NCBI GenBank assembly: GCA_029838195.1
Contig: JALGVJ010000017.1
Coordinates: forward strand, 32,001 to 96,000
Length of the DNA stretch: 64,000 nucleotides
Source of the DNA: Promethearchaeota archaeon
Lineage (GTDB): Archaea > Asgardarchaeota > Lokiarchaeia > Sigyniarchaeales > SOKP01
Direction of reading: 5' to 3'
How positions within the stretch are numbered: position 1 is the first letter of the stretch; every line of letters begins with the position of its first letter. The notes under the pieces are model-generated. The model was not told where the DNA came from and did not search any database. It was given only the letters and a program-made list of their open reading frames with translations. Shown here piece by piece: positions 20,488-58,924 of the stretch. Made by a program: the position numbers and the translations under genes.

Positions 20488-20689
20488 AGCAAAATCGTCG
20501 AAGAAATTATAGAAATTGATGAATAAGAAGGAAAAATGATTATAATAATGTTCTGTATTTAGTGCATTATAAATAATCTTTTTCTTTTTTTTTATACGTT
20601 AAATTGAGGTTTCTATTTATTTCACGCGATATTAGATTTAAAATCTTTTTACAATTCTTTATTCATCTTTAATATTTAATAAGATTCTT

Positions 20690-21538
20690 CTATTTTAAAG
20701 GATATCGTGGTTTTCTCTTTTCAAAAAATGCTGAGGTCGCTTCTTGAATATCTTTAGCAGAAAAGGTCACGACGATTGAGCTATTCTCGAATTGAAGCAT
20801 GTTTTCCAAACTCGGAGAATCTAATGAGAGATTAATTGCCTCTTTTGTCATTCGTAGGCCTAAAGGACTCTTAGTTAATAGTTCTTCTGCCAGTTTTATG
20901 CCCTCTTCTAATAACTGCTCCTTCTCAACGACTTTTAAAACTAAACCGATTTTTTCAGCTTCTTTAGCATCCACGAATCGCCCCGTATATAAGATTTCTG
21001 CTGCTCGCGCCATTCCAATTAACCGGGGGAGAAAATAACTCATTCCCACGTCTGCTCCACTTAAACCGAGATGTACAGCCGCATTCATGAATTTCGCTTC
21101 AGGAGTTGCAATGCGCATGTCTGAAGCCAAAGCAAAACCCATTCCCCCACCTGTAGCGGCTCCATGAATTAAGGCAATGATGGGTTGGCTTATTTTTCTC
21201 ATTTTAACGTAAATTTGGCTAATTCTCCATTGATGGTACATTTTACGTTTCAAGGGGTCGGAAATATTTAAAAAATTGAATTTTTCAAGACTTGGGGGTA
21301 ATTTTTTTGAATTCAGTATGATGCCATCTTGAAGATCCATGCCGGCACAGAAAGCTCTACCTTCTCCTTTTAAAATTAAAACGCGACAATCTAAATTAAC
21401 CATTAAATGATCTAAGAGCGCATGTAAATCTTCCTCCATTTGGAAGGTGATTGCGTTTAATTTTTCTGGTCTTTTTAAAGTTAATATCCCCACTCCATTT
21501 TCCTTTAATTCAAATTGTATGGTTTTAAACTCCATCAT
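20690..21538 (-). CDS. Enoyl-CoA hydratase/isomerase (crotonase) family
   Basis: RPEKLNA, AFCAGMDL, QPIIALIHGAATGGG and FFEKRKP motifs. Confidence 0.92.
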   Translation of the reverse strand: MMEFKTIQFELKENGVGILTLKRPEKLNAITFQMEEDLHALLDHLMVNLDCRVLILKGEGRAFCAGMDLQDGIILNSKKLPPSLEKFNFLNISDPLKRKMYHQWRISQIYVKMRKISQPIIALIHGAATGGGMGFALASDMRIATPEAKFMNAAVHLGLSGADVGMSYFLPRLIGMARAAEILYTGRFVDAKEAEKIGLVLKVVEKEQLLEEGIKLAEELLTKSPLGLRMTKEAINLSLDSPSLENMLQFENSSIVVTFSAKDIQEATSAFFEKRKPRYPLK

Positions 21539-21880
21539 ATAATACTCACGTTCTCATGTGTCTTAAATGGTTGTTAAGAAAAACTTTTATGATTTTCGGA
21601 AAAATCAAGTATTTTTAAAAACTTTAGATTAATTAATTAAAATATTAAAAAAAATAATGAAAGATATTTATTAATTCATTTTAAAATGACAGTCGCCGAA
21701 TAGTCAAACCAATTTTGGACAAAATTAGACATGAACACAAAAATAGAGGGGTTTTTTTTAATCGTCTTTTATGATCATTCTTCAGGAACTCTTTCTTTTT
21801 TTGGAGCAAAAAATACAAATAAAAAAAAAAAGATTGGAAAGAAAATTAAAAAGACAGACCTCATCCTTTAATTAATATCT

Positions 21881-22735
21881 TCATTTTAGCGGGTATTTCG
21901 GCTTTCTTTTTTCGAAAAAAGCTGCAATCCCTTCATTCAAATCGGAAGAAGTGGAGCATAACATTTGAGTTCTATTTTCTAATTGTATTATGGTTTCTAA
22001 ACTGGGCGAATCCATCGATAAATTAATAGCCTCTTTCGTCATGCGCAGTCCCAATGGACTTTTTGCCAATAAATCACTTGCTAATTCAAGACCGCTTTCC
22101 AATAATTTTTCCTTCTCTACAACTTTCAAAACTAATCCTATTTTTTCTGCTTCATCTGCCTCTATAAATCTTCCCGTATATAAGATCTCTGCGGCTTTAG
22201 ACATCCCAATAAGGCGAGGCAAGTAATAACTACAAGCTAAATCCGCTCCTGAAAAGCCTACTTTAATGAATGCATTATTAAACCGTGCTTCTTTACTCGC
22301 AATGCGAAAGTCAGAAGCGAGGGAAAAAGCAAAACCAACACCAGAAGCGGCTCCCTGAACCAGTGCGATGATGGGTTGGCTGATTCTTCGCATTTTCACG
22401 ATGATTTGAGAAGCTCGCCATTGGGCATAAATTTTTGCCTTAATGATGTCTTTTTCGGGTACATTTAAAAAGAAAAATTTCTCCTTTAGCTCTTCAGGTT
22501 TCTTTTTAGATTGCAATATCGTAGATTCTTTAAGATCTAATCCCGCGCAAAAAACTCTTCCTTCTGCTTTTAAGATTAATACCCTACAATCAAGATTGGT
22601 CATTAAATGATCATATACCGAATGAAGCTCTTCCGACATCTGAAAATTCATGGCGTTTAGTTGATCTGGCCGATTAAAGGTAAGAATACCCACTCCATCG
22701 TCCCGAACTTCAAATTTTAGGGTTTCGTATTCCAT
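21881..22735 (-). CDS. Enoyl-CoA hydratase/isomerase family (tandem paralog)
   Basis: Same motifs, clearly similar to 20690..21538. Confidence 0.92.
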   Translation of the reverse strand: MEYETLKFEVRDDGVGILTFNRPDQLNAMNFQMSEELHSVYDHLMTNLDCRVLILKAEGRVFCAGLDLKESTILQSKKKPEELKEKFFFLNVPEKDIIKAKIYAQWRASQIIVKMRRISQPIIALVQGAASGVGFAFSLASDFRIASKEARFNNAFIKVGFSGADLACSYYLPRLIGMSKAAEILYTGRFIEADEAEKIGLVLKVVEKEKLLESGLELASDLLAKSPLGLRMTKEAINLSMDSPSLETIIQLENRTQMLCSTSSDLNEGIAAFFEKRKPKYPLK

Positions 22736-47650: not shown

Positions 47651-48058
47651 TTGAAACGCTCAGATGATTGGTTAAAACAAGCTAAAAAAGATATCTTGCA
47701 TTCCAAAGAAAGTCTCAAAATTCAGCACCATGAATGGGCTGTCTTTGCGGCTCAACAAGGAGCAGAAAAAGCCATCAAGGCTTTATTTCATGAAATTGGA
47801 GCAGATGCCAGAGGACACTCGTTATTTTTCCTTTTAAAAAAATTACCGCAAAATTTTCATGTTTCGGATAAAATAATGAATAGCGCTAAAAGTTTAGATA
47901 AACATTATATTACTTCTCGATATCCAAATAGTTTTGCTTCAGGAGCTCCTGAAGATTATTATACTAAAGAAGAGGCTGAAGAGGCAATTAAAAATGGAGA
48001 AGAAATATTCAAATTCTGTGAGCGTCAAATATCCTCCCTCCGGGAAGGAACTTCTTAA
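47651..48058 (+). CDS. HEPN domain protein
   Basis: WLKQAKKD, AQQGAEKAIKA, GHSL and YITSRYP motifs. Confidence 0.9.
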   Translation: MKRSDDWLKQAKKDILHSKESLKIQHHEWAVFAAQQGAEKAIKALFHEIGADARGHSLFFLLKKLPQNFHVSDKIMNSAKSLDKHYITSRYPNSFASGAPEDYYTKEEAEEAIKNGEEIFKFCERQISSLREGTS

Positions 48059-48365
48059 ATTACTTAAAAATAATGCCGAAAACTTAGGAAAAATTATTCC
48101 TAATATAAAGAAAATAATTCTTTTTGGTTCCTTTGCGAGATTAAAACCTCATGCTAATAGTGATGTCGATTTACTTTTCATTATCGATAAAAGATTCCCT
48201 AATGATTTTGAAATAATTTATGAATTCTTATACGATTTATCTCTAAATTATGAATGGGCACCCCTAATTCTTGATGTAAATCATTTTAAAAAATTACAAG
48301 AAGAAAAAGGATTTTTTATAAGAGAGATACTTGAAGAGGGAATTATCATTTATTCTGAATTATGA
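47994..48365 (+). CDS. Minimal nucleotidyltransferase (MNT), partner of HEPN
   Basis: ILFGSFAR...SDVDLLFI; overlaps the HEPN 3' end. ATG 47994 preferred over TTG 47934. Confidence 0.88.
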   Translation: MEKKYSNSVSVKYPPSGKELLKLLKNNAENLGKIIPNIKKIILFGSFARLKPHANSDVDLLFIIDKRFPNDFEIIYEFLYDLSLNYEWAPLILDVNHFKKLQEEKGFFIREILEEGIIIYSEL

Positions 48366-49616: not shown

Positions 49617-49922
49617 GTCAAAGCACTTTATAAGTCCAATTTAATTTTTAAAATTTTAAGGGAGTTAAAAGCGGGAAAATATCAAATACAAGAAATTGAA
49701 ATTGCAGAAAAAATTAGTATTAAAATATTAAATCTGAAGAAATTTAAAAAAGATTTCAATAGTTTGAAAAATGTTGAGCATGTAGGAAATATTTATAGAT
49801 TAAATGAAATAGGAGATATCAATATAATAGAATTGAAAATGAGTGAATCTAAAAAAGGAAGAGGAAAATTAGCGAATTTTAGTCAAAAACTCTTAATAAT
49901 TATAAATTGTTTACTCAAATAA
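49617..49922 (+). pseudogene. Gene remnant, possibly the N-terminal cap region of an LRR protein
   Basis: 101 open codons without a proper start, including YRLNEIGDINIIELK; about 190 nt of it is missing from copy 2. Confidence 0.35.
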
Positions 49923-50093
49923 TATAATATCTTGGTGAAGTGAATTTAGGACAATAAATAATTTCCAAGACCAAATTTAGAGAGAATTTAAATAGGTATA
50001 AAAATTATCCAGATGGAATTGAATAAAGGACCAAAAAATCAAAAAATAAGCAATAAAGGGGGTTATTAAAAAAAATAAATCAATTTTGAATTA

Positions 50094-51539
50094 TTAAATT
50101 TTCAACCTATTGAGTTCAGCTTTATTTTTTAATACCACATCCTGAGTTAAAGGAAAAAACTTCCAAAAAATCAAGGTAGCCACGAGTAAAATTGTTCCAG
50201 GAATAACTCCTTCAAGTAAACGAATACCTAAAAGAACTAAATCCATGTTAGGAACCACGGCAGCCATTTTTTCATAGGTATCATAGCCTGCAACGAACCC
50301 TGTAAGATTATGGACGATAGCGAAAATTAATTCATCAATATTGCCGGTAAGACGATTAAGCATTGCTGTAATTCCAATGAGAATGGCCTTTTGATTGGTT
50401 TTCAGCTTTGCGGCGAAATCATCCACTACTGATGGGAATAATATGGTAAACAAGAAAGTATTTACACCTCCAGAGGCAATTCCGAGTATGAATGCCATGA
50501 TCATGAGATCAAATAGTCCTTGAAAAAAAGTCAATGGAAACAACGCAATACTATATGTTAAACCTCCAACTACAAATGCTTTTTTGTTGTCGTTTACTTT
50601 CCTAATGAATTTAAGCCAAAAAGGAACCGATATTAAAGTTCCTAAGAGATTTAAACCTAAAATAAGAATATATGCATCCGAACTCTCTTGTAGAACAAAA
50701 GTTATTACATACACCAAATTTGGTACGATCAAGGCTAATGTAACCCCATAGGCTACACCATATATGAAATATACTATGAAACTTCTCAATGTTATAATTC
50801 CTTTTAATGCCTCAAAAAAACTAATGTCTTTTTTTTCAATTTCAGGAGAAAAATATCTTTCAATCATTATTTCATCTTCACGATTGCCGGGAAGGCTTAA
50901 AATAGCAAATATCAGACAAAATATTGCAACAACTGTACCCATGATTTGATAGCTAGCTTTCTTATCTCCGGGAATTATATCAATAAAAAGAGCGGGTAAT
51001 ACAATGCCAAATATTACTGAAGAAATATCGAGCGGAACATAATATTTTGTGAAAATACGACGTTCTTCTTCCGTTCGAAATTTATCCGGTCGAATTGTAT
51101 TTATATTAATACCCACGAGCGTGCCAAAGGTGTCATAAACAAATAATGACATTAATAACCACCAAAAAGCGGGCCAAGGATTTGAAGAAACATCGAGATC
51201 AGGGATAGAAAAGAGCAAATAAATAGAAAAGCACCAAGGGACGATACCTACAACAATCCATGGAAATCGTCTCCCCCATTTTCTCGTGAATCGCATGTTT
51301 CTGTCAATCAGAAAACCAAAGAGCGGGTCGTTTACTGCGTTGTATACCATGAATATACTCGATGCGAGAAAAATAAACAAAATATTTAAACCGACAATAA
51401 CTTCGTAATAAAAAAGGTAAAATCCCGACATGACAGCGCCTAATGTTGAAGAGGAAACTTGAGAAAGAGCATTTGAAAGAAAGGTCCATCTTGAATGTCT
51501 TGTTTCAGAAGATTCTTCAAAAGTAATATTTTCATTCAT
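50094..51539 (-). CDS. MFS transporter (GPH family), copy 1
   Basis: NDPLFGFLID...WGRRFPW; 12 TM helices. Confidence 0.9.
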   Translation of the reverse strand: MNENITFEESSETRHSRWTFLSNALSQVSSSTLGAVMSGFYLFYYEVIVGLNILFIFLASSIFMVYNAVNDPLFGFLIDRNMRFTRKWGRRFPWIVVGIVPWCFSIYLLFSIPDLDVSSNPWPAFWWLLMSLFVYDTFGTLVGININTIRPDKFRTEEERRIFTKYYVPLDISSVIFGIVLPALFIDIIPGDKKASYQIMGTVVAIFCLIFAILSLPGNREDEIMIERYFSPEIEKKDISFFEALKGIITLRSFIVYFIYGVAYGVTLALIVPNLVYVITFVLQESSDAYILILGLNLLGTLISVPFWLKFIRKVNDNKKAFVVGGLTYSIALFPLTFFQGLFDLMIMAFILGIASGGVNTFLFTILFPSVVDDFAAKLKTNQKAILIGITAMLNRLTGNIDELIFAIVHNLTGFVAGYDTYEKMAAVVPNMDLVLLGIRLLEGVIPGTILLVATLIFWKFFPLTQDVVLKNKAELNRLKI

Positions 51540-51712
51540 TTTTGATTTACATGTTTGTTTTAAAAAAATTAGTTGTAATAATATTTAAATCTTAGTAACC
51601 ATTGATTTTTCTAACATCAAATTTTATCATTTGCATTAGTTTTTAAAACCAAGAAATTAATTAAAAAAAAATCTTTAAAACCAAATAATAACTAAAAAAA
51701 AAAAGAAAAATA

Positions 51713-52894
51713 ATGAAAGCGGATAAGGCTGAAATCGAATTTTTATTCAAACAAATGCTTAAAGAGCAAGAGGAAAAAGCTCCTACAGATAAAATTTATC
51801 AGAAAGACATGGAGGATGTTGGAATATTTAAAGTTCAGTGGAAGATATGCGGAATTTTAGGATATCAAATATATGAAAAGGATAAAATAAGCTACAAATT
51901 CGGAGAAACTTTAGAAGAACCTGATGTTACTCTTGTTATTAGAGATAAAGAGTTAGCAGCTCGATTTCTAAAGGGAGAAGTTTTTGATTTTGATATTCTT
52001 CCGGGGTACAAAAAGGAGTATAAAATAAATTATACGGAAGGTAAGAAAATAGTCGAAACGAAAGAAGGAAGGAGAAGAGTTCCCGCCATTTCAAAACCTT
52101 TTGTAGTAGCTCGATTTAATAGAGATAAAAACTATCATCCTTATATCTTATCAAAATTACCCGTTTTTCGAAAACTTGTTGTTGAAACCCGTGTGAATCC
52201 TGATGACATTGGCTATTACATTCCAATCAATCAATCTCTTGGAACTTATGAAAATCAAACTTTACCCATGAAAATTATTAGGAATTTTATTGAAAAAGCG
52301 AGTAATATATTAATACTAAACCAGTGTGGGTGCAGAAAATACAATGGGTGTAAAGATTACGATATAAAAATAGGATGCATTTACATGGGAGATGATATTA
52401 AAAATATCGAACTTATTGAAGGTAAACATCATTTAGCAACAAAAGAAGAAGCTTTAGAACATGTACAACGAGCCGTTGATAATGGTCTAATTCCACTAAT
52501 AGGAAGGGCAATGGATGAAGCTGTGGGATTTGGTGTGGAAGATACGGGACATTTTATGGGAATGTGTTTCTGTTGTCCTTGTTGTTGTACTAATGTAAGA
52601 AATACGAAATATGGAACAAAGTATATTAATTTTTTCCGTAAAATAGAAGGTCTTGAGATTTCGGTGGATCCAGACCTTTGCACGGCATGTGAAACGTGTT
52701 TGGAATCATGTGTTTTTGATGCATTGAAAATAGATGATATAGCTATAATTGATGAGGAAAAATGCATGGGATGTGGTCGCTGTGAAACGGCATGTCCTAA
52801 TGGTGCTATTTCACTAAAGATTACTGATCCACGGGATATTGATGAATTAATTGAAAAAATCGAATCTCATGTTGATGTGACTCCATCTAGTTAA
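51713..52894 (+). CDS. SCP2-like domain fused to a 4Fe-4S ferredoxin protein, copy 1
   Basis: N-terminal VQWKI...EPDVTLVI (SCP2-like), CGCR...C, CFCCPCCC and two CxxCxxCxxxC motifs. Confidence 0.8.
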   Translation: MKADKAEIEFLFKQMLKEQEEKAPTDKIYQKDMEDVGIFKVQWKICGILGYQIYEKDKISYKFGETLEEPDVTLVIRDKELAARFLKGEVFDFDILPGYKKEYKINYTEGKKIVETKEGRRRVPAISKPFVVARFNRDKNYHPYILSKLPVFRKLVVETRVNPDDIGYYIPINQSLGTYENQTLPMKIIRNFIEKASNILILNQCGCRKYNGCKDYDIKIGCIYMGDDIKNIELIEGKHHLATKEEALEHVQRAVDNGLIPLIGRAMDEAVGFGVEDTGHFMGMCFCCPCCCTNVRNTKYGTKYINFFRKIEGLEISVDPDLCTACETCLESCVFDALKIDDIAIIDEEKCMGCGRCETACPNGAISLKITDPRDIDELIEKIESHVDVTPSS

Positions 52895-53427
52895 AATTTA
52901 TATTAAATTTCAAAAAAATCTTTAAAGAATCGTCATCAAATAGAAAGGACTTCAATTTGGGCTCTATATAGAGCCAAAAATAAGAAAATTACATTATTTT
53001 GAAAATCTCGGGAAGTAGCTCGGAAATAATTATATTGAAATGGATTTATTTAATAATGAGATGAAATAAAAAATAAGATTTGACACGAAATGTAGTAGCG
53101 TTCTAAAAGGGTTAAGTCAAAGCACTTTACAAGTCAAATTTATTAATTTTTAAAATCTTGAGGAGGTTAAAACCGAGAAAACATGAAAGACAAGAAATTG
53201 AAAATGCTCTTACTGACACTATAAATTGTTTAACTCAAATAATATATAATATCTTGATGAAGTGAATTTAGGAGGGGGAGGGCAAAAAATAATTCCCAAG
53301 ACCAAATTTTGAGAGAATTTAAATAGGTATAAAAATTATCCAGACGAATTGAATAAAAATTCAAAAAATCAAAAAATAAGCAATAAAAAGGGTTATTAAA
53401 AAAAAAAGAAAAATCAATTTTGAATTA

Positions 53428-54873
53428 TTATATTTTCAACCTATTGAGTTCAGCTTTATTTTTTAATATCACATCCTGAGTTAACGGAAAAAACTTCCAA
53501 AAAATCAAGGTAGCCGCGAGTAAAATGGTTCCGGGAATGACTCCTTCAAGTAAGCGAATGCCCAAAAGAACTAAATTCATATCAGGAACCACGGCAGCCA
53601 ATTTATCATAAGTATCATAGCCCTCAACGAATCCTGTAAGATTATGGACGATAGCGAAAATTAATTCATCAATATTGCCGGTAAGACGATTAAGCATTGT
53701 CGTAATTCCGATGAGAATGGCCTTTTGGTTGGTCTTCAGCTTTACGGCGAAATCATCCACTACGGATGGGAACAATATGGTAAACAAGAAAGTATTTGTA
53801 CCTCCACTGGCAATTCCGAGTATGAATGCCATGATCATGAGATCAAATAGTCCTTGAAAAAAAGTTAATGGAAATAACGCAAAACTATACGTAAGACCAG
53901 CAATTACAAATGCCTTTTTGTTGTCGTTTACTTTCTTAATAAATTTAAGCCAAAAAGGAACCGATATTAAAGTCCCTAAGAGATTTAAGCCTAAAATAAG
54001 AATATATGCATCCGAACTCTCTTGTAGAACAAAAGTTATTACATACATCAAATTTGGTATGATCAAGGCCAATGAAACCCCATAGGCTACACCGTATATG
54101 AAATATACTATGAAACTTCTCAATGTTATAATTCTTTTTAATGTCTCAAAAAAACTAATGCCTTTTTTTTCAATTTCAGGAGAAAAATATCTTTCAATCA
54201 TTACTTCATCTTCACGATTGCCGGGAAGGCTTAAAATAGCAAATATCAGACAGAATATCGCAACAACTGTACCCATGATTTGATAGCTAGCTTTCTTATC
54301 TCCGGGAATCACGTTAATAAAAAGTGCGGGTAATACAATGCCAAATATTATTGAAGAAATATCGAGCGGAACATAATATTTTGTGAAAATACGGCGTTCT
54401 TCTTCCGTTCGAAATTTATCCGGTCGAATTGTGTTTACATTAATACCCACGAGCGTGCCAAAGGTGTCATAAACAAATAATGACATTAATAACCACAAAA
54501 AAGCAGGCCAAGGATTTGAAGAAACATCGAAATCAGGGACAGAAAAGAGCAAATAAATAGAAAAGCACCATGGGACAATACCGATAACAATCCAAGGGAA
54601 ACGTCTCCCGTATTTTCTCGTGAATCGCATGTTTCTGTCAATCAGAAAACCAAAAAGCGGGTCGTTTACTGCGTTATATACGACGAAGATCGTCGAAGCA
54701 AGAAAAATCAACAAAATATTTAAACCTACAATAACTTGGTAATAAAAAAGGTAAAATCCCGACATGACAGCGCTTAATGTTGAAGAAGAAACCTGAGAAA
54801 GAGCGTTTGAAAGGAAGATCCATCTTGAATGTCTTGTTTCAGAAGATTCTTCAAAAGTACTATTTTCATTCAT
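53428..54873 (-). CDS. MFS transporter (GPH family), copy 2
   Basis: Same length (481 aa) and near-identical to copy 1. Confidence 0.9.
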   Translation of the reverse strand: MNENSTFEESSETRHSRWIFLSNALSQVSSSTLSAVMSGFYLFYYQVIVGLNILLIFLASTIFVVYNAVNDPLFGFLIDRNMRFTRKYGRRFPWIVIGIVPWCFSIYLLFSVPDFDVSSNPWPAFLWLLMSLFVYDTFGTLVGINVNTIRPDKFRTEEERRIFTKYYVPLDISSIIFGIVLPALFINVIPGDKKASYQIMGTVVAIFCLIFAILSLPGNREDEVMIERYFSPEIEKKGISFFETLKRIITLRSFIVYFIYGVAYGVSLALIIPNLMYVITFVLQESSDAYILILGLNLLGTLISVPFWLKFIKKVNDNKKAFVIAGLTYSFALFPLTFFQGLFDLMIMAFILGIASGGTNTFLFTILFPSVVDDFAVKLKTNQKAILIGITTMLNRLTGNIDELIFAIVHNLTGFVEGYDTYDKLAAVVPDMNLVLLGIRLLEGVIPGTILLAATLIFWKFFPLTQDVILKNKAELNRLKI

Positions 54874-55019
54874 TTTTGATTTGATTTACAAGTTTGTTTT
54901 TAAAAAAATTAGTTGTAATAATATTTAAATCTTATTAAAGATTGATTTTTCTAATATATAACATTTATTTGCATTAGTTTTTAAACCTAAGCAATAACTG
55001 AAAAAAAAAATGAGAAATA

Positions 55020-56201
55020 ATGAAGGAAAATAAAGCTGAAATCGAAATTTTATTTAAACAAATGCTTAAAGAGCAAGAGGAAAAAGCTCCGAACGATAAA
55101 ATTTATCAGAAAGACATGGAGGATGTTGGAATATTTAAAGTTCAGTGGAAGATATGCGGAATTTTAGGATATCAAATATATGAAAAGGATAAAATAAGCT
55201 ACAAGTTCGGAGAAACTTTAGAAGAGCCTGATGTTACTCTTGTTATTAGAGATAAAGAGTTAGCGGCTCGATTTCTAAAGGGAGACGTTTTTGATTTTGA
55301 TATTCTTCCGGGGTATAAAAAGGAGTATAAAATACATTACACGGAAGGTAAGAAAGTAGTCGAAACGAAAGAAGGAAAGAAAAGAGTTCCCGCCATTTCA
55401 AAACCTTTTGTAGTAGCTCGATTTAATAGAGATAAAAATTATCATCCTTATATCTTATCAAAATTACCCGTTTTTCGAAAACTTGTTGTTGAAACCCGTG
55501 TTAGTGAACATGATGTTGGCTATTACATTCCAATCAATCAATCTCTTGGAACTTATGAAAATCAAACTTTACCCGTGAAAATCATTAAGAATTTTATTGA
55601 AAAAGCGAGTAATATAATAATATTAGATTACTGTCCATGCAGAAAATATTATGGGTGTAAAGATTACGATATAAATATCGGATGCGTTTATATGGGAGAT
55701 GATACCAAAAAAATCGAACTTATTGAAGGTAAACATCATTTAGCAACAAAAGAAGAAGCTTTAGAACATGTACAACGAGCCGTTGATAATGGTTTAATTC
55801 CACTAATAGGAAGGGCAATGGATGAAGCTGTGGGATTTGGTGTGGAAGATACGGGACATTTCATGTCCATGTGTTTCTGTTGCCCTTGTTGTTGCACGAA
55901 CGTGAGGAATACGCAATATGGAACAAAGTATATTAATTTTTTCCGTAAAATGGAAGGTCTTGAGATTTCGGTGGATCCAGACCTTTGCACGGCATGCGAA
56001 ACGTGTTTAGACTCATGTGTTTTTGGTGCATTGAGCGTAGACGATATAGCCATGATTAACGAGGAAAAATGCATTGGATGTGGTCGCTGTGAGAAGGCAT
56101 GTCCAAATGATGCCATTTCATTAAAGATTACTGATCCACATGAAATTGATGAATTAATTAAAATAATCGAATCTCATGTTGATGTGACACCATCTAGTTA
56201 A
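55020..56201 (+). CDS. SCP2-like domain fused to a 4Fe-4S ferredoxin protein, copy 2
   Basis: Same length (393 aa) and near-identical to copy 1. Confidence 0.8.
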   Translation: MKENKAEIEILFKQMLKEQEEKAPNDKIYQKDMEDVGIFKVQWKICGILGYQIYEKDKISYKFGETLEEPDVTLVIRDKELAARFLKGDVFDFDILPGYKKEYKIHYTEGKKVVETKEGKKRVPAISKPFVVARFNRDKNYHPYILSKLPVFRKLVVETRVSEHDVGYYIPINQSLGTYENQTLPVKIIKNFIEKASNIIILDYCPCRKYYGCKDYDINIGCVYMGDDTKKIELIEGKHHLATKEEALEHVQRAVDNGLIPLIGRAMDEAVGFGVEDTGHFMSMCFCCPCCCTNVRNTQYGTKYINFFRKMEGLEISVDPDLCTACETCLDSCVFGALSVDDIAMINEEKCIGCGRCEKACPNDAISLKITDPHEIDELIKIIESHVDVTPSS

Positions 56202-56456
56202 AATTTATATTAAATTTCAAAAAAATCTTTGAAGAATCCTCATCAAATAGAAAAGACTTCAATTTGGGCTCTATATAGTGCCAAAAATAAGAAAATTACC
56301 TTATTTTGAAGATCTCGGGAAATAGTTAATGAAAATTTTTTCTTTTTCCTTTTTTTCATTTTAAAATAGCTTTTTATTTTCCCTTGTTTTTAAAATTGAT
56401 TTATATCGTATTTCTAAGCAGTAATGAGATTTATACGGCATTAAACTCGGAAAAAA

Positions 56457-58481
56457 CTATATTGAGATGCGTTTTTTGCTCAATTTTGGCTTGCTGATGA
56501 GGAATCCGCATTTAGGACAAATCAGATACATGCGAAATTCTTTCATACTGGTAAAAAAACTTGCGCCAAGGATGCCAGCGGGAAGAGTAAAAAGAGATAC
56601 GCCCAAGAAAGCAAAACTAATGGTCGCTAACCGACCTGCTGTAGTTATGGGATATACATCTCCAAATCCCGTGGTGGTGAACGTGGTAACTCCAAACCAA
56701 ATCGTGGAAGGAATGCTTCGAAATTTTTCGGGTTGAGCGTCCTTTTCCAAGTGGTAAATTATGGTAGAGGCGCAGATGAGAAATATCACGCATAACAGAA
56801 TTGTAGTAAAAAATTCTTTTTTTGAATATTTGATGATAACTCCGATTATATCAAAAACAGCAAGAAAATGGCCAATTTGAAATATCACGAACATTCTCAA
56901 TGCTAATAAGACCGGAATTCCTGAGGGAAATGCATTGAACAAGAATATCGTAAGATAGAGAGAGATGAGGAAAATAAGGTCCGTGATTCCCATGAAGCTT
57001 TTAATGTAATTTAATCTCCCCTGAATCTTATCGTGAAATTTCTCTTCTTCAGCTGCAACGATACTCCAAACTCTCAGAAGGAATTCAACGGTAAAAACGA
57101 TTGCTGAAAGCATTAGAACCGTAAAAATTACGGTGCGATTTTCTTGGTAAAGAATGGGATTTGTTTCTGCCATTATGATGAGGATATTAAACGTGATGAA
57201 AGTTGCGAAAAATACGAAGATTACTACTTGTAAAATAGTATGAGGATATCTAAATTCAAGATTTTCATAAATAAACCGTTGGCGGGAGAATTGAGCGTCA
57301 TGAGTGTAGTATACATCTTGTTTTTTTACTTCTTCAAGTACTTTTTTTAAGTATTTTGGTTTTCTACCCCTAGATCGTGCAAAAACTTCTCTTAATAATT
57401 CGCTTCTTTCGATGACATGTTGACAATTTGGGCATTTTTCTAATAAGGGATTTCTCGCTTGAATTTCATCCACGAATCCCGAGCCTATAACGCTAGCAGG
57501 CAATAAGAACACTGTAATGCCAATAACGGAAATGACTGATGAAACAATCTTGCCCATCGTAGTAATAGGTGTAATTTCACCGTACCCTATAGTAAATAGA
57601 TTTATAGCAGTAAACCACATGGAACTAAATAGATTCGTAAAGACTTCCGGTTGAGCATCGTGTTCTGTAAGAAACATTAAAATCGACCCCAGGAACATTA
57701 ATAATAAAGAGAGAATGAAGGTAATCAAGAGTTCTTCCTTTTTCTCTTTAATAACCGTCCATATTATATCGAATGATTGGGAATATCGCACGAGCTTGAA
57801 GAATACGATTAAGTGAAAGATTCTAACGAATCCTCGGTATTCACTGGTCAAGGGTATGATTAAACCAAGAATGATGGCGATAATACTTGAGAGATCTACT
57901 AGAGGAAGAAAGTTACTCATGTAGCGCAAGCGCTTATAAGGCATTCCATCATATTTAGGATTAAGATCGCACGTCCATAACCTTAACAAAAATTCCACGC
58001 TAAGGATGATTGCGGCAATTATTTCAATAATAATCAAGACGTCGCGATAATCTTTTTGGATATAATCAACGGTTTCAAATATGATGGTCATGCCGCTTGC
58101 GATGGAAATTATAATGATTAAAAGAGAGAGTGCGGTTGAATATATATTAGCAAACTTTTGCGTGGTTAAAGCTGAATGTGTTTTTACTTTAATTTTCTTT
58201 GAAAATTTAAGAAAATCCTTAGTTCGCTTTTCATGAGCTCTTTTTCGAATTGAGATTGATGCAGTAATCTTATTCACGTATTTTTGTTTTTTATCGGGTA
58301 AAGTCAACTCGGTCAAGTTTGTTTTTTCTGTGTCTATATTTATTTCTTCTTTTTTCCCTTTTACAAGAATTCCTTGCTCCTCTTTTAGCTTATTCAAGGC
58401 ATCTTGATGGAATTTACTATTGATATGACGGGCAGAAGTAGGATCTTTCAGTTCCTTTCCACAAATCTCACATTTAGGCAA
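56457..58481 (-). CDS. Two-repeat (2x6TM) potassium channel with N-terminal C2H2 zinc finger and CxxC motifs
   Basis: CEIC...H....H; two S1-S6 modules (VEFLLRLW/VEFLLRVW, VD/TD in S3); filters TIGYG and TTGFG; CPNC and CPKC after each S6. Confidence 0.88.
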   Translation of the reverse strand: MPKCEICGKELKDPTSARHINSKFHQDALNKLKEEQGILVKGKKEEINIDTEKTNLTELTLPDKKQKYVNKITASISIRKRAHEKRTKDFLKFSKKIKVKTHSALTTQKFANIYSTALSLLIIIISIASGMTIIFETVDYIQKDYRDVLIIIEIIAAIILSVEFLLRLWTCDLNPKYDGMPYKRLRYMSNFLPLVDLSSIIAIILGLIIPLTSEYRGFVRIFHLIVFFKLVRYSQSFDIIWTVIKEKKEELLITFILSLLLMFLGSILMFLTEHDAQPEVFTNLFSSMWFTAINLFTIGYGEITPITTMGKIVSSVISVIGITVFLLPASVIGSGFVDEIQARNPLLEKCPNCQHVIERSELLREVFARSRGRKPKYLKKVLEEVKKQDVYYTHDAQFSRQRFIYENLEFRYPHTILQVVIFVFFATFITFNILIIMAETNPILYQENRTVIFTVLMLSAIVFTVEFLLRVWSIVAAEEEKFHDKIQGRLNYIKSFMGITDLIFLISLYLTIFLFNAFPSGIPVLLALRMFVIFQIGHFLAVFDIIGVIIKYSKKEFFTTILLCVIFLICASTIIYHLEKDAQPEKFRSIPSTIWFGVTTFTTTGFGDVYPITTAGRLATISFAFLGVSLFTLPAGILGASFFTSMKEFRMYLICPKCGFLISKPKLSKKRISI

Positions 58482-58924
58482 AATATATCCTCATGAAGCT
58501 TTAAACTTAACATTTTAATGATATAAATTTTATTTAAATTTTTCAAATCCGTGAAATTTAGAACGGAGAAATAAAAATTTAACATTAGATATCTTGAAAT
58601 TTGAAAAAAAGTATTGTTAAAATGAATATTTTTCAACTTAACAAGGAATGTAATCGTCTCTTTTTTTGATTGAATGGGTCTTTTATACCATTAAAATGCT
58701 TATTATCTTTAAAATGAAAAAAGATTAATTTAAATTGAGAAAAATATGATAGGCTTAGTGAAATTGGTTTTCTCATAAAAAGCTCTATTTAAGATAAATT
58801 ATTATAGATAACAAGGTTACTTTATCCTTTAGAAATAAAATGAATATGTCAATTAAAGCAAGTAATATTTTTACCGTTATGCTAAGAGCCCAAAAAAAAA
58901 AAATTTGAGGAGGTATCTTATCAA

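What the first reader, a model, noticed from the sequence alone, without database searches (positions are those of the whole stretch)
56457..58481. Single-chain 2x6TM K+ channel with asymmetric voltage sensors and selectivity filters
Seen: two complete S1-S6 modules in one 674-aa ORF. Filters are TIGYG (repeat I) and TTGFG (repeat II). S4-I keeps several basic residues (RGFVRIFHLIVFFKLVRY) while S4-II has one (LALRMFVIFQIGHF). There is an N-terminal C2H2 finger and a CxxC after each S6. Knowledge: prokaryotic 6TM channels are normally single-repeat tetramers, whereas 2x6TM is the layout of eukaryotic two-pore channels and the proposed intermediate to 4x6TM Cav/Nav. Inference: a dimeric K+ channel that arose by intragenic duplication in an Asgard archaeon, probably convergent with TPCs. 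The two CxxC motifs may form one Zn or redox site.
Basis: partly seen in the sequence, partly recalled or inferred. Interest (0 to 1): 0.8.

Follow-up and report, generated by a model that had tools for sequence, protein, structure and literature searches.

The report
Asgard archaeal two-repeat potassium channel
This Asgard archaeon encodes two complete potassium-channel subunits in one protein, so two chains instead of four should build the pore, a design that the papers I checked report only from eukaryotes and viruses, and one that arose here separately from a bacterial-type subunit rather than being the ancestor of our two-pore, sodium or calcium channels.

Summary
Observation confirmed. 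56457-58481(-) is one 674-aa ORF with two S1-S6 modules (29% identical), filters TIGYG and TTGFG, and a CPxC after each S6. It is no assembly artefact: 37 other full-length two-repeat proteins were found, and 17 of 400 genomes of the phylum carry it in one frame, all in one order (Promethearchaeota/Loki by the names of homologs). No single-repeat form was found in those 400. Both repeats derive from a widespread prokaryotic, KCNQ-like single subunit that already ends in one CPxC; TPC/Nav/Cav match only in layout (11-14% identity). Corrections: both S4 helices have lost most gating charges (3 and 1 in-register basic residues against about 6 in the parent family), so voltage gating is doubtful; the N-terminal finger is in only 4 of 38 members. 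Added here: loss of the filter Tyr in repeat II goes with loss of its inter-subunit Thr partner in repeat I (36 of 38; only two independent events), fitting an alternating I-II-I-II dimer. It is the only recognisable K+ pathway in this genome. Function is untested. The scan found this family before on other genomes (e1-5498507, e1-2077294).

The parts
56457..58481 (-). ORF, 674 aa, single-chain 2x6TM K+ channel
58488..58492 (-). Shine-Dalgarno-like GAGGA, 6 nt before the TTG start
   Evidence: sequence; role inferred
58407..58472 (-). N-terminal C-x2-C-x11-H-x5-H finger (residues 4-25), accessory: in P0001, P0002, P0013, P0016 only; no second copy in the genome; below Pfam cut-offs
   Evidence: pLDDT 90 over residues 1-30
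57453..58145 (-). Repeat I, S1-S6 (residues about 113-343)
57783..57842 (-). S4 of repeat I (214-233): in-register R220, H223, K229, R232; three outer or middle Arg positions of the parent family lost
57576..57602 (-). Pore helix end and filter I (N294 to E302; TIGYGE); N294 replaces the Thr that accepts the neighbour's filter Tyr
   Evidence: PMC8001480
57423..57434 (-). CPxC knuckle I (C350, C353), invariant in 30 aligned members
57237..57422 (-). Inter-repeat linker (354-415), basic, variable in length among homologs, no stop
   Evidence: partly covered by identical contigs of two other runs
56532..57236 (-). Repeat II, S1-S6 (residues about 416-650), with KCNQ-like S6
56865..56915 (-). S4 of repeat II (523-539): one in-register Arg (R529) and a nearly invariant His (H538)
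56658..56684 (-). Pore helix end and filter II (T600 to D608; TTGFGD); T600 kept in 38 of 38, facing Y300 of repeat I
56508..56519 (-). CPxC knuckle II (C655, C658), invariant in 30 aligned members

Best explanation
A stand-alone K+ channel gene. An ancestor within one order of Loki-type Asgard archaea took up a prokaryotic KCNQ-like single-subunit channel gene (about 265 aa, ending in CPxC), most likely from a bacterium, and doubled it in frame (shown: family, parent family, range; inferred: donor, duplication rather than fusion of two close paralogs). Two chains form one pore with repeats alternating I-II-I-II, as in TPC and K2P channels (inferred, about 0.85). The filter is two-fold symmetric: Y300 of repeat I keeps its inter-subunit Thr partner (T600 of repeat II), while at the other two interfaces both partners were lost together (F606, N294). 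It conducts K+ (inferred from two intact TxGYG/TxGFG motifs, about 0.75). After the doubling both S4 helices shed gating charges step by step, repeat II further, so the channel in this lineage is probably weakly voltage-dependent or voltage-independent (about 0.65). The likeliest remaining control is the pair of CPxC knuckles just after the two S6 gate helices, binding one Zn with four Cys or sensing redox state (about 0.4). Likely job: K+ entry and membrane-potential control in a cell with no other recognisable K+ channel, Trk, Kdp or Kup.
For: 31 close homologs at 39-65% identity with both repeats, seven more distant full tandems; 17 of 400 phylum genomes, each with two matches in one open frame, 16 in the window's family and 1 in the same order, and no single-repeat form with a single-repeat query. 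Best solved relatives by sequence are KCNQ channels (E 7e-26) and by fold KCNQ/Kv for the first 45 ranks. Repeat profiles score single-repeat K+ channels at a median 236-246 bits and two BacNav-type proteins at 11-14 bits. Whole model aligns over both repeats to TPC3 (Z 15.2, rmsd 6.7, 443 residues, 12% identity) and over both pores to K2P TASK3 (Z 13.0, rmsd 4.7, 159 residues), single repeats to KCNQ1 (Z 16.0, rmsd 3.2, 258 residues, 24%). Repeat I and II subtrees mirror each other. Cross-repeat Thr/Tyr concordance 36 of 38, matching the inter-subunit T439-Y445 bond of Shaker (PMC8001480). Early-branching members keep 5-6 S4 charges in one or both repeats (P0137, P0140, P0142). Singles carry one CxxC (139) or none (104), never two; tandems carry both (36) or neither (2). 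No TrkH, KdpA, Kup, and no other Ion_trans_2 gene in the genome.
Against: No functional or expression data. The deep tree is unresolved: monophyly of the two repeats is not significant and was missing from some trees. The Thr/Tyr pairing rests on two independent events, sign test p 0.5. The second pore-helix Trp is Phe in both repeats of this protein, and in Kv2.1/Kv1.2 breaking the Trp-Tyr bond abolished conductance (PMC8001480), so low or no conductance is possible. The gene is missing from 119 of 135 genomes of the same family, so it is dispensable. The genome bin is 96.6% complete and 7.9% contaminated, so absence of other K+ transporters is not certain.
Confidence: 0.72

Rival explanations
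1. The protein is a living relative of the two-repeat intermediate that gave eukaryotic TPCs and four-repeat Nav/Cav channels, inherited through the Asgard ancestry of eukaryotes.
For: Same 2x6TM layout; the model superposes over both repeats on TPC1-3 and on a 580-aa diatom Ion_trans cluster (TM 0.65); host is Asgard.
Against: Identity to TPC/Nav/Cav 11-14% against 22-29% to Kv/KCNQ; K+ signature filters; 11-14 bits to BacNav-type proteins against about 240 to K+ singles; found in one order only, not in the other classes searched; nearest singles lie on bacterial-looking contigs. TPC sequences themselves could not be put in my trees.
Confidence: 0.03
2. Origin by fusion of two neighbouring but different single-subunit channel genes (an obligate heteromer made covalent), not by duplication of one gene.
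For: Each repeat profile scores single-repeat proteins higher than the other repeat (236 vs 199; 246 vs 198 bits); FastTree and one IQ-TREE run do not join the repeats.
Against: The constrained tree with I+II together is 13 log units better than the free search; another run joins them (SH-aLRT 90); the His after S4, rare in singles (10 of 243), is in 36 of 38 repeats II and in repeat I of two early-branching members. Faster divergence after duplication explains the bit scores.
Confidence: 0.25
3. A true voltage-gated channel with division of labour, as in TPCs: S4-I moves and gates, S4-II is a fixed scaffold.
For: S4-I keeps more charges than S4-II across the family (means 3.9 and 2.5); K229 and R232, R167 and D196 are invariant; unequal S4 charge is also seen in SAR tandem Kv-like channels (PMC7576140).
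Against: In this protein only R220 of the five outer Arg positions is kept; the fifth is Val/Ala in most members; K229 and R232 lie at the inner end, where they usually pair with S2/S3 acids; the charge-transfer Phe of S2 is Leu160 in repeat I here.
Confidence: 0.3
4. The crown members are not K+-selective conductors any more (non-selective, or closed scaffolds or sensors).
For: Departures around both filters: Trp to Phe in the pore helices, Asp to Glu after filter I, Val to Thr and Tyr to Phe in filter II; the relative P0142 has lost both filters.
Against: The filter Thr and both Gly are invariant in both repeats across 30 members at about 50% mean identity; GYG/GFG pairs are usual in conducting animal K2P channels (PMC13715775).
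Confidence: 0.15
5. Assembly or gene-calling artefact joining two genes.
For: No public run covers the whole gene in one piece; 57368-57418 of the linker is not covered by the pieces listed.
Against: 37 other full-length tandems from NCBI, JGI, ENA and Logan assemblies and 17 genomes with one open frame; the two repeats share no significant DNA similarity that could collapse.
Confidence: 0.01

Closest known systems
Unnamed prokaryotic single-repeat 6TM K+ channels of about 265 aa ending in CPxC (annotated 'ion transporter' / 'voltage-gated potassium channel')
   Same: 33-40% identity to each repeat; same S6 motif, K+ filter and C-terminal CPxC.
   Different: Single repeat, presumably homotetramer; full Arg ladder in S4 (mean 6.0); uniform TVGYGD filter.
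KCNQ / Kv7 channels
   Same: Best solved relatives by sequence (E 7e-26) and fold (Z 16.0, 24-29% identity); S6 PAG-type hinge.
   Different: Kv7 subunits are single-repeat with a calmodulin-binding C-terminus; this protein has two repeats, CPxC knuckles and no such tail.
[quoted passage not shown]
   Same: 2x6TM, K+ filters, repeats about 30% identical, unequal S4 charge.
   Different: Eukaryotic; thought to be several independent duplications. Eukaryotic multi-repeat K+ proteins that I retrieved branch apart from the Asgard repeats and lack CPxC; the paper's own sequences were not in my trees.
Two-pore channels TPC1-3
   Same: 2x6TM chain, expected dimer; model superposes over 440-480 residues.
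   Different: 11-12% identity; Na+/Ca2+ or non-selective filters without GYG (own knowledge); related to Nav/Cav; reported as absent from prokaryotes (PMC7312350).
K2P channels (TASK, TREK, THIK; viral Kpov)
   Same: Two K+ pore domains per chain, dimer, GYG/GFG asymmetry; both pores of the model align together to TASK3.
   Different: K2P have 4 TM and no S1-S4 domains; stated not to occur in prokaryotes (PMC13715775).

Membership tests
6TM Kv-like K+ channel superfamily | S1-S4 domain plus S5-P-S6 pore per repeat | tested here: met
   Pfam Ion_trans x2; model; fold matches
6TM Kv-like K+ channel superfamily | K+ signature TxGY/FG | tested here: met
   TIGYG and TTGFG, Thr and Gly invariant
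6TM Kv-like K+ channel superfamily | K+-selective conduction | not testable with these tools
   needs electrophysiology or complementation
Voltage-gated K+ channels (Kv, strict sense) | S4 with four or more Arg/Lys at every third position | tested here: not met
   3 in repeat I and 1 in repeat II, against 6.0 in singles; met in early-branching relatives such as P0137
Voltage-gated K+ channels (Kv, strict sense) | Single-repeat subunit, tetramer | tested here: not met
   two repeats per chain in all 17 genomes
KCNQ / Kv7 | Kv7-like transmembrane core | tested here: met
KCNQ / Kv7 | C-terminal calmodulin-binding and assembly domain (Pfam KCNQ_channel) | tested here: not met
   no such Pfam hit; chain ends 16 residues after the second CPxC
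Two-pore channels (TPC) | 2x6TM chain | tested here: met
Two-pore channels (TPC) | Nav/Cav-type repeats and a filter without the K+ signature | tested here: not met
   K+ signature in both pores; 11-12% identity to TPCs; 11-14 bits to BacNav-type proteins
Two-pore channels (TPC) | Dimeric assembly | tested here: inconclusive
   indirect only: model geometry and cross-repeat Thr/Tyr pattern
K2P channels | Two K+ pore domains per chain | tested here: met
K2P channels | 4TM chain without voltage-sensor domains | tested here: not met
   12 TM with two S1-S4 domains
SAR tandem Kv-like channels | 2x6TM with K+ filters | tested here: met
SAR tandem Kv-like channels | Descent from the same duplication | tested here: inconclusive

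The most novel reading that the evidence does not exclude
The first described prokaryotic family of tandem (two-pore-domain) K+ channels: a functional dimer caught along a visible path from a symmetric, voltage-gated tetramer to an asymmetric, largely voltage-independent channel gated by a Zn/redox clasp between its two S6 tails, i.e. an independent archaeal re-run of the step that made TPC, K2P and Nav/Cav channels. A link to a eukaryotic four-repeat family of KCNQ-like ancestry is not excluded as a sister relation (p-AU 0.74), though the pattern expected of a 2-to-4 doubling is rejected (p-AU 0.004).
Probability: 0.35. Interest if true: 0.8.

Novelty: new variant of a known kind. Interest (0 to 1): 0.62.

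Why it matters
Reviews and a 2026 paper state that tandem channel architectures (TPC-like, K2P) are not found in prokaryotes (PMC7312350, PMC13715775). This family is a counter-example for K+ channels and shows that repeat doubling, with the asymmetry that follows, needs no eukaryotic cell. It does not explain the origin of TPC/Nav/Cav, because it comes from another branch and sits in one Asgard order. Its value is as a natural series: singles, early tandems with full S4 and GYG/GYG filters, and late tandems with stripped S4 and GYG/GFG filters all exist, so what doubling does to selectivity, C-type inactivation and voltage sensing can be tested directly, in small KCNQ-like prokaryotic proteins that may suit structural work.

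Tried and rejected
Homodimer prediction of residues 105-600 gave no answer (score 0.01): no evidence either way. Read laying: only Logan contigs of DNA runs, none spanning the gene; identical pieces cover 57023-57367 and 57419-57926 from different runs, with no stop or indel, but 57368-57418 is not among the pieces listed. No RNA holder listed. Careful IQ-TREE searches did not finish; the trees cited are quick (SH-aLRT) or FastTree trees. No TPC, Nav or Cav sequence could be fetched for the trees; two BacNav-type proteins served only for profile scores. Neighbourhood: not conserved in five loci compared, so the flanking MFS, ferredoxin-like and methyltransferase genes were rejected as partners. 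N-terminal finger: no Pfam family above cut-off, no second copy in the genome, Atlas hits unnamed and weak. The sigma-70 promoter scan is not suited to archaea and was not used. Model coordinates were not readable, so contact between the two CPxC knuckles could not be checked. Paper searches for Asgard or Loki voltage-gated or two-pore channels found no description of this family; the library lacks most subscription papers.

Full report
Observation. The finding is in the sequence as described. 56457-58481 on the minus strand is one 674-codon frame with a TTG start and a GAGGA six bases upstream. Pfam finds Ion_trans and Ion_trans_2 twice each. The halves align at 29% over 245 residues and share no significant DNA similarity. 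The filters are TIGYGE (297-302) and TTGFGD (603-608); CPxC motifs follow each S6 (350-353, 655-658); a C2H2-type finger occupies residues 4-25. AlphaFold models both modules with mean pLDDT 79. Gene GC is 35.9% in a 33.5% genome.

It is not an artefact. The protein search gave 31 homologs at 39-65% identity covering both repeats, from NCBI, JGI, ENA and Logan assemblies; those with names are Promethearchaeota, with one Hermodarchaeota and one Thorarchaeota label. The profile search of 1.84 billion representatives added seven distant full tandems. In 400 genomes of the window's phylum, 17 carry the gene, each as one open frame; 16 are of the window's family (of 135) and one of the same order. 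A single-repeat query found the same 17 genomes with exactly two matches each and nothing else. So in those searched the tandem is the only form and it is confined to one order. Public runs offered only short contigs; identical pieces cover most of the linker without stop or indel, but not all of it, so the orthologs carry this point. One distant tandem, P0142, lies on a 56% GC contig of unknown owner and has lost both filters; it may be non-Loki.

Ancestry. Shorter relatives are a widespread family of about 265-aa 6TM channels, 33-40% identical to repeat I, with TVGYGD, a KCNQ-like S6 and one C-terminal CPxC, in many bacterial phyla and in Methanothrix. The nearest solved structures are KCNQ channels by sequence (E 7e-26) and by fold (first 45 Foldseek ranks all Kv; KCNQ1 Z 16.0, rmsd 3.2 over 258 residues). 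TPCs, Nav and Cav align over both repeats but at 11-14% identity, and profiles of either repeat give two BacNav-type proteins 11-14 bits against medians of 236-246 for K+ singles. In trees, repeats II form one group and most or all repeats I another, with mirrored branching. Whether I and II are sisters is unresolved: the tree that holds them together is 13 log units better than the free search, p-AU 0.77, one run joins them with two singles at SH-aLRT 90, two others do not. The two singles nearest to them lie on bacterial-looking contigs. Lateral gain followed by duplication is the best reading; fusion of two close paralogs remains open.

How it probably works. (a) Assembly, inferred: two chains give four pore modules. 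The model packs the two pores of one chain as neighbours, since both align at once to K2P channels and both whole repeats to TPC3. In Shaker the filter Tyr bonds to a pore-helix Thr of the next subunit (T439-Y445; PMC8001480). Singles keep this pair in 234 of 243 cases. In the tandems the Thr of repeat II is kept in 38 of 38 and the Tyr of repeat I in 37; the Thr of repeat I is replaced by Asn in 26, and in all 26 the Tyr of repeat II is gone; where repeat II keeps Tyr (10), repeat I keeps Thr or Ser. This crosswise pattern is what alternating repeats predict, but on the tree it is two events and not significant (p 0.5). (b) Selectivity, inferred: the filter Thr and both Gly are invariant in both repeats, and GYG/GFG pairs conduct K+ in animal K2P channels (PMC13715775); the changed aromatic shell could lower conductance or alter inactivation. 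(c) Gating, inferred: in register, S4-I has R220, H223, K229, R232 and S4-II has R529 and H538; family means are 3.9 and 2.5 basic residues against 6.0 in singles, while early-branching tandems keep 5-6. The loss is therefore derived and affects both sensors. (d) The knuckles: singles have one CxxC or none, never two, so a four-Cys Zn site would need two subunits and would already make the inner face two-fold; tandems have both motifs (36) or neither (2). A shared Zn or redox site beside the S6 gate fits, but is untested. (e) Role: this is the only Ion_trans_2 gene in the genome, which also shows no TrkH, KdpA or Kup (bin 96.6% complete), and its neighbours differ from locus to locus. The N-terminal finger is present in four members only.

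Comparison with what is known. Two-repeat Kv-like channels with unequal S4 charge are described from dinoflagellates, oomycetes and chlorarachniophytes (PMC7576140). TPC-like layout is reported as absent from prokaryotes (PMC7312350), and so are tandem K2P channels (PMC13715775). I found no paper on an archaeal two-repeat K+ channel, within a library that lacks most subscription journals. The protein works, by inference, like a TPC or K2P in assembly and like a Kv7-type channel in its pore, and is a member of none: it fails the TPC filter and ancestry tests, the K2P topology test and the strict Kv tests. The profile search also brought up eukaryotic four-repeat proteins with KCNQ-like cores and acidic filters. 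Their four repeats group together; joining Asgard repeat I with their repeats 1 and 3 is rejected (p-AU 0.004), but a sister relation of the whole Asgard group to them is not (p-AU 0.74).

Verdict. A real, conserved, Asgard-order-restricted family of single-chain 2x6TM K+ channels; a new variant of a known kind, convergent with eukaryotic tandems; not the TPC/Nav/Cav intermediate. The scan noted the same family on other genomes; my reading was set before I saw those notes and agrees with them. Interest 0.62.

Noticed in passing
window 49901-53018 and 53220-56325: A 3.1-kb cassette (MFS_2 transporter on -, 393-aa ferredoxin-type Fe-S protein on +) is duplicated head to tail at 91% DNA identity, ending just before the channel's stop.
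   Followed up: partly
window 20675-21525 and 21867-22725: Second, older tandem gene duplication (282 and 284 aa ORFs, 67% DNA identity).
   Followed up: no
L092:160-4641 (P0133); also P0139, P0149 (L096:910-2763): A 1493-aa protein with four complete 6TM repeats, each with a TIGYG filter and a full S4 ladder and no CNBD hit: a four-repeat Kv-like K+ channel. The contig looks eukaryotic (GC3 80%, low-complexity linkers); owner unknown. Its repeats group together, apart from the Asgard ones.
   Followed up: partly
L095:10001-13519 (P0145); P0146-P0148, P0155, P0156, P0159, P0160, P0167, P0184: A eukaryotic four-repeat family whose core resembles the KCNQ-like prokaryotic subunit but whose pores carry acidic residues (E, E, D, E) in place of the K+ signature; one member is from Mesostigma viride, one from assembly GCA_000142905.1 (Thecamonas, from memory). 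Could be a separate origin of a Ca2+-type four-repeat channel; not checked against the published four-domain surveys (PMC5824947).
   Followed up: partly
L097:749-2458 (P0142): Two-repeat relative with full S4 ladders, no CPxC and both K+ filters degenerate, on a 56% GC contig of unknown owner.
   Followed up: partly
P0150, P0158, P0162, P0164, P0170, P0182, P0189, P0194, P0195, P0225: Single-pore K+ channels of the same family with one to three extra S1-S4-like domains in front of the 6TM unit.
   Followed up: no
whole genome G000 and relatives: No TrkH, KdpA, Kup or RCK-type hit over cut-off in this genome, and most Asgard genomes searched have no 6TM K+ channel of this kind; how they take up K+ is not evident.
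   Followed up: partly
window 47651-48365: HEPN-like and nucleotidyltransferase-like ORF pair, read from the translation only.
   Followed up: no
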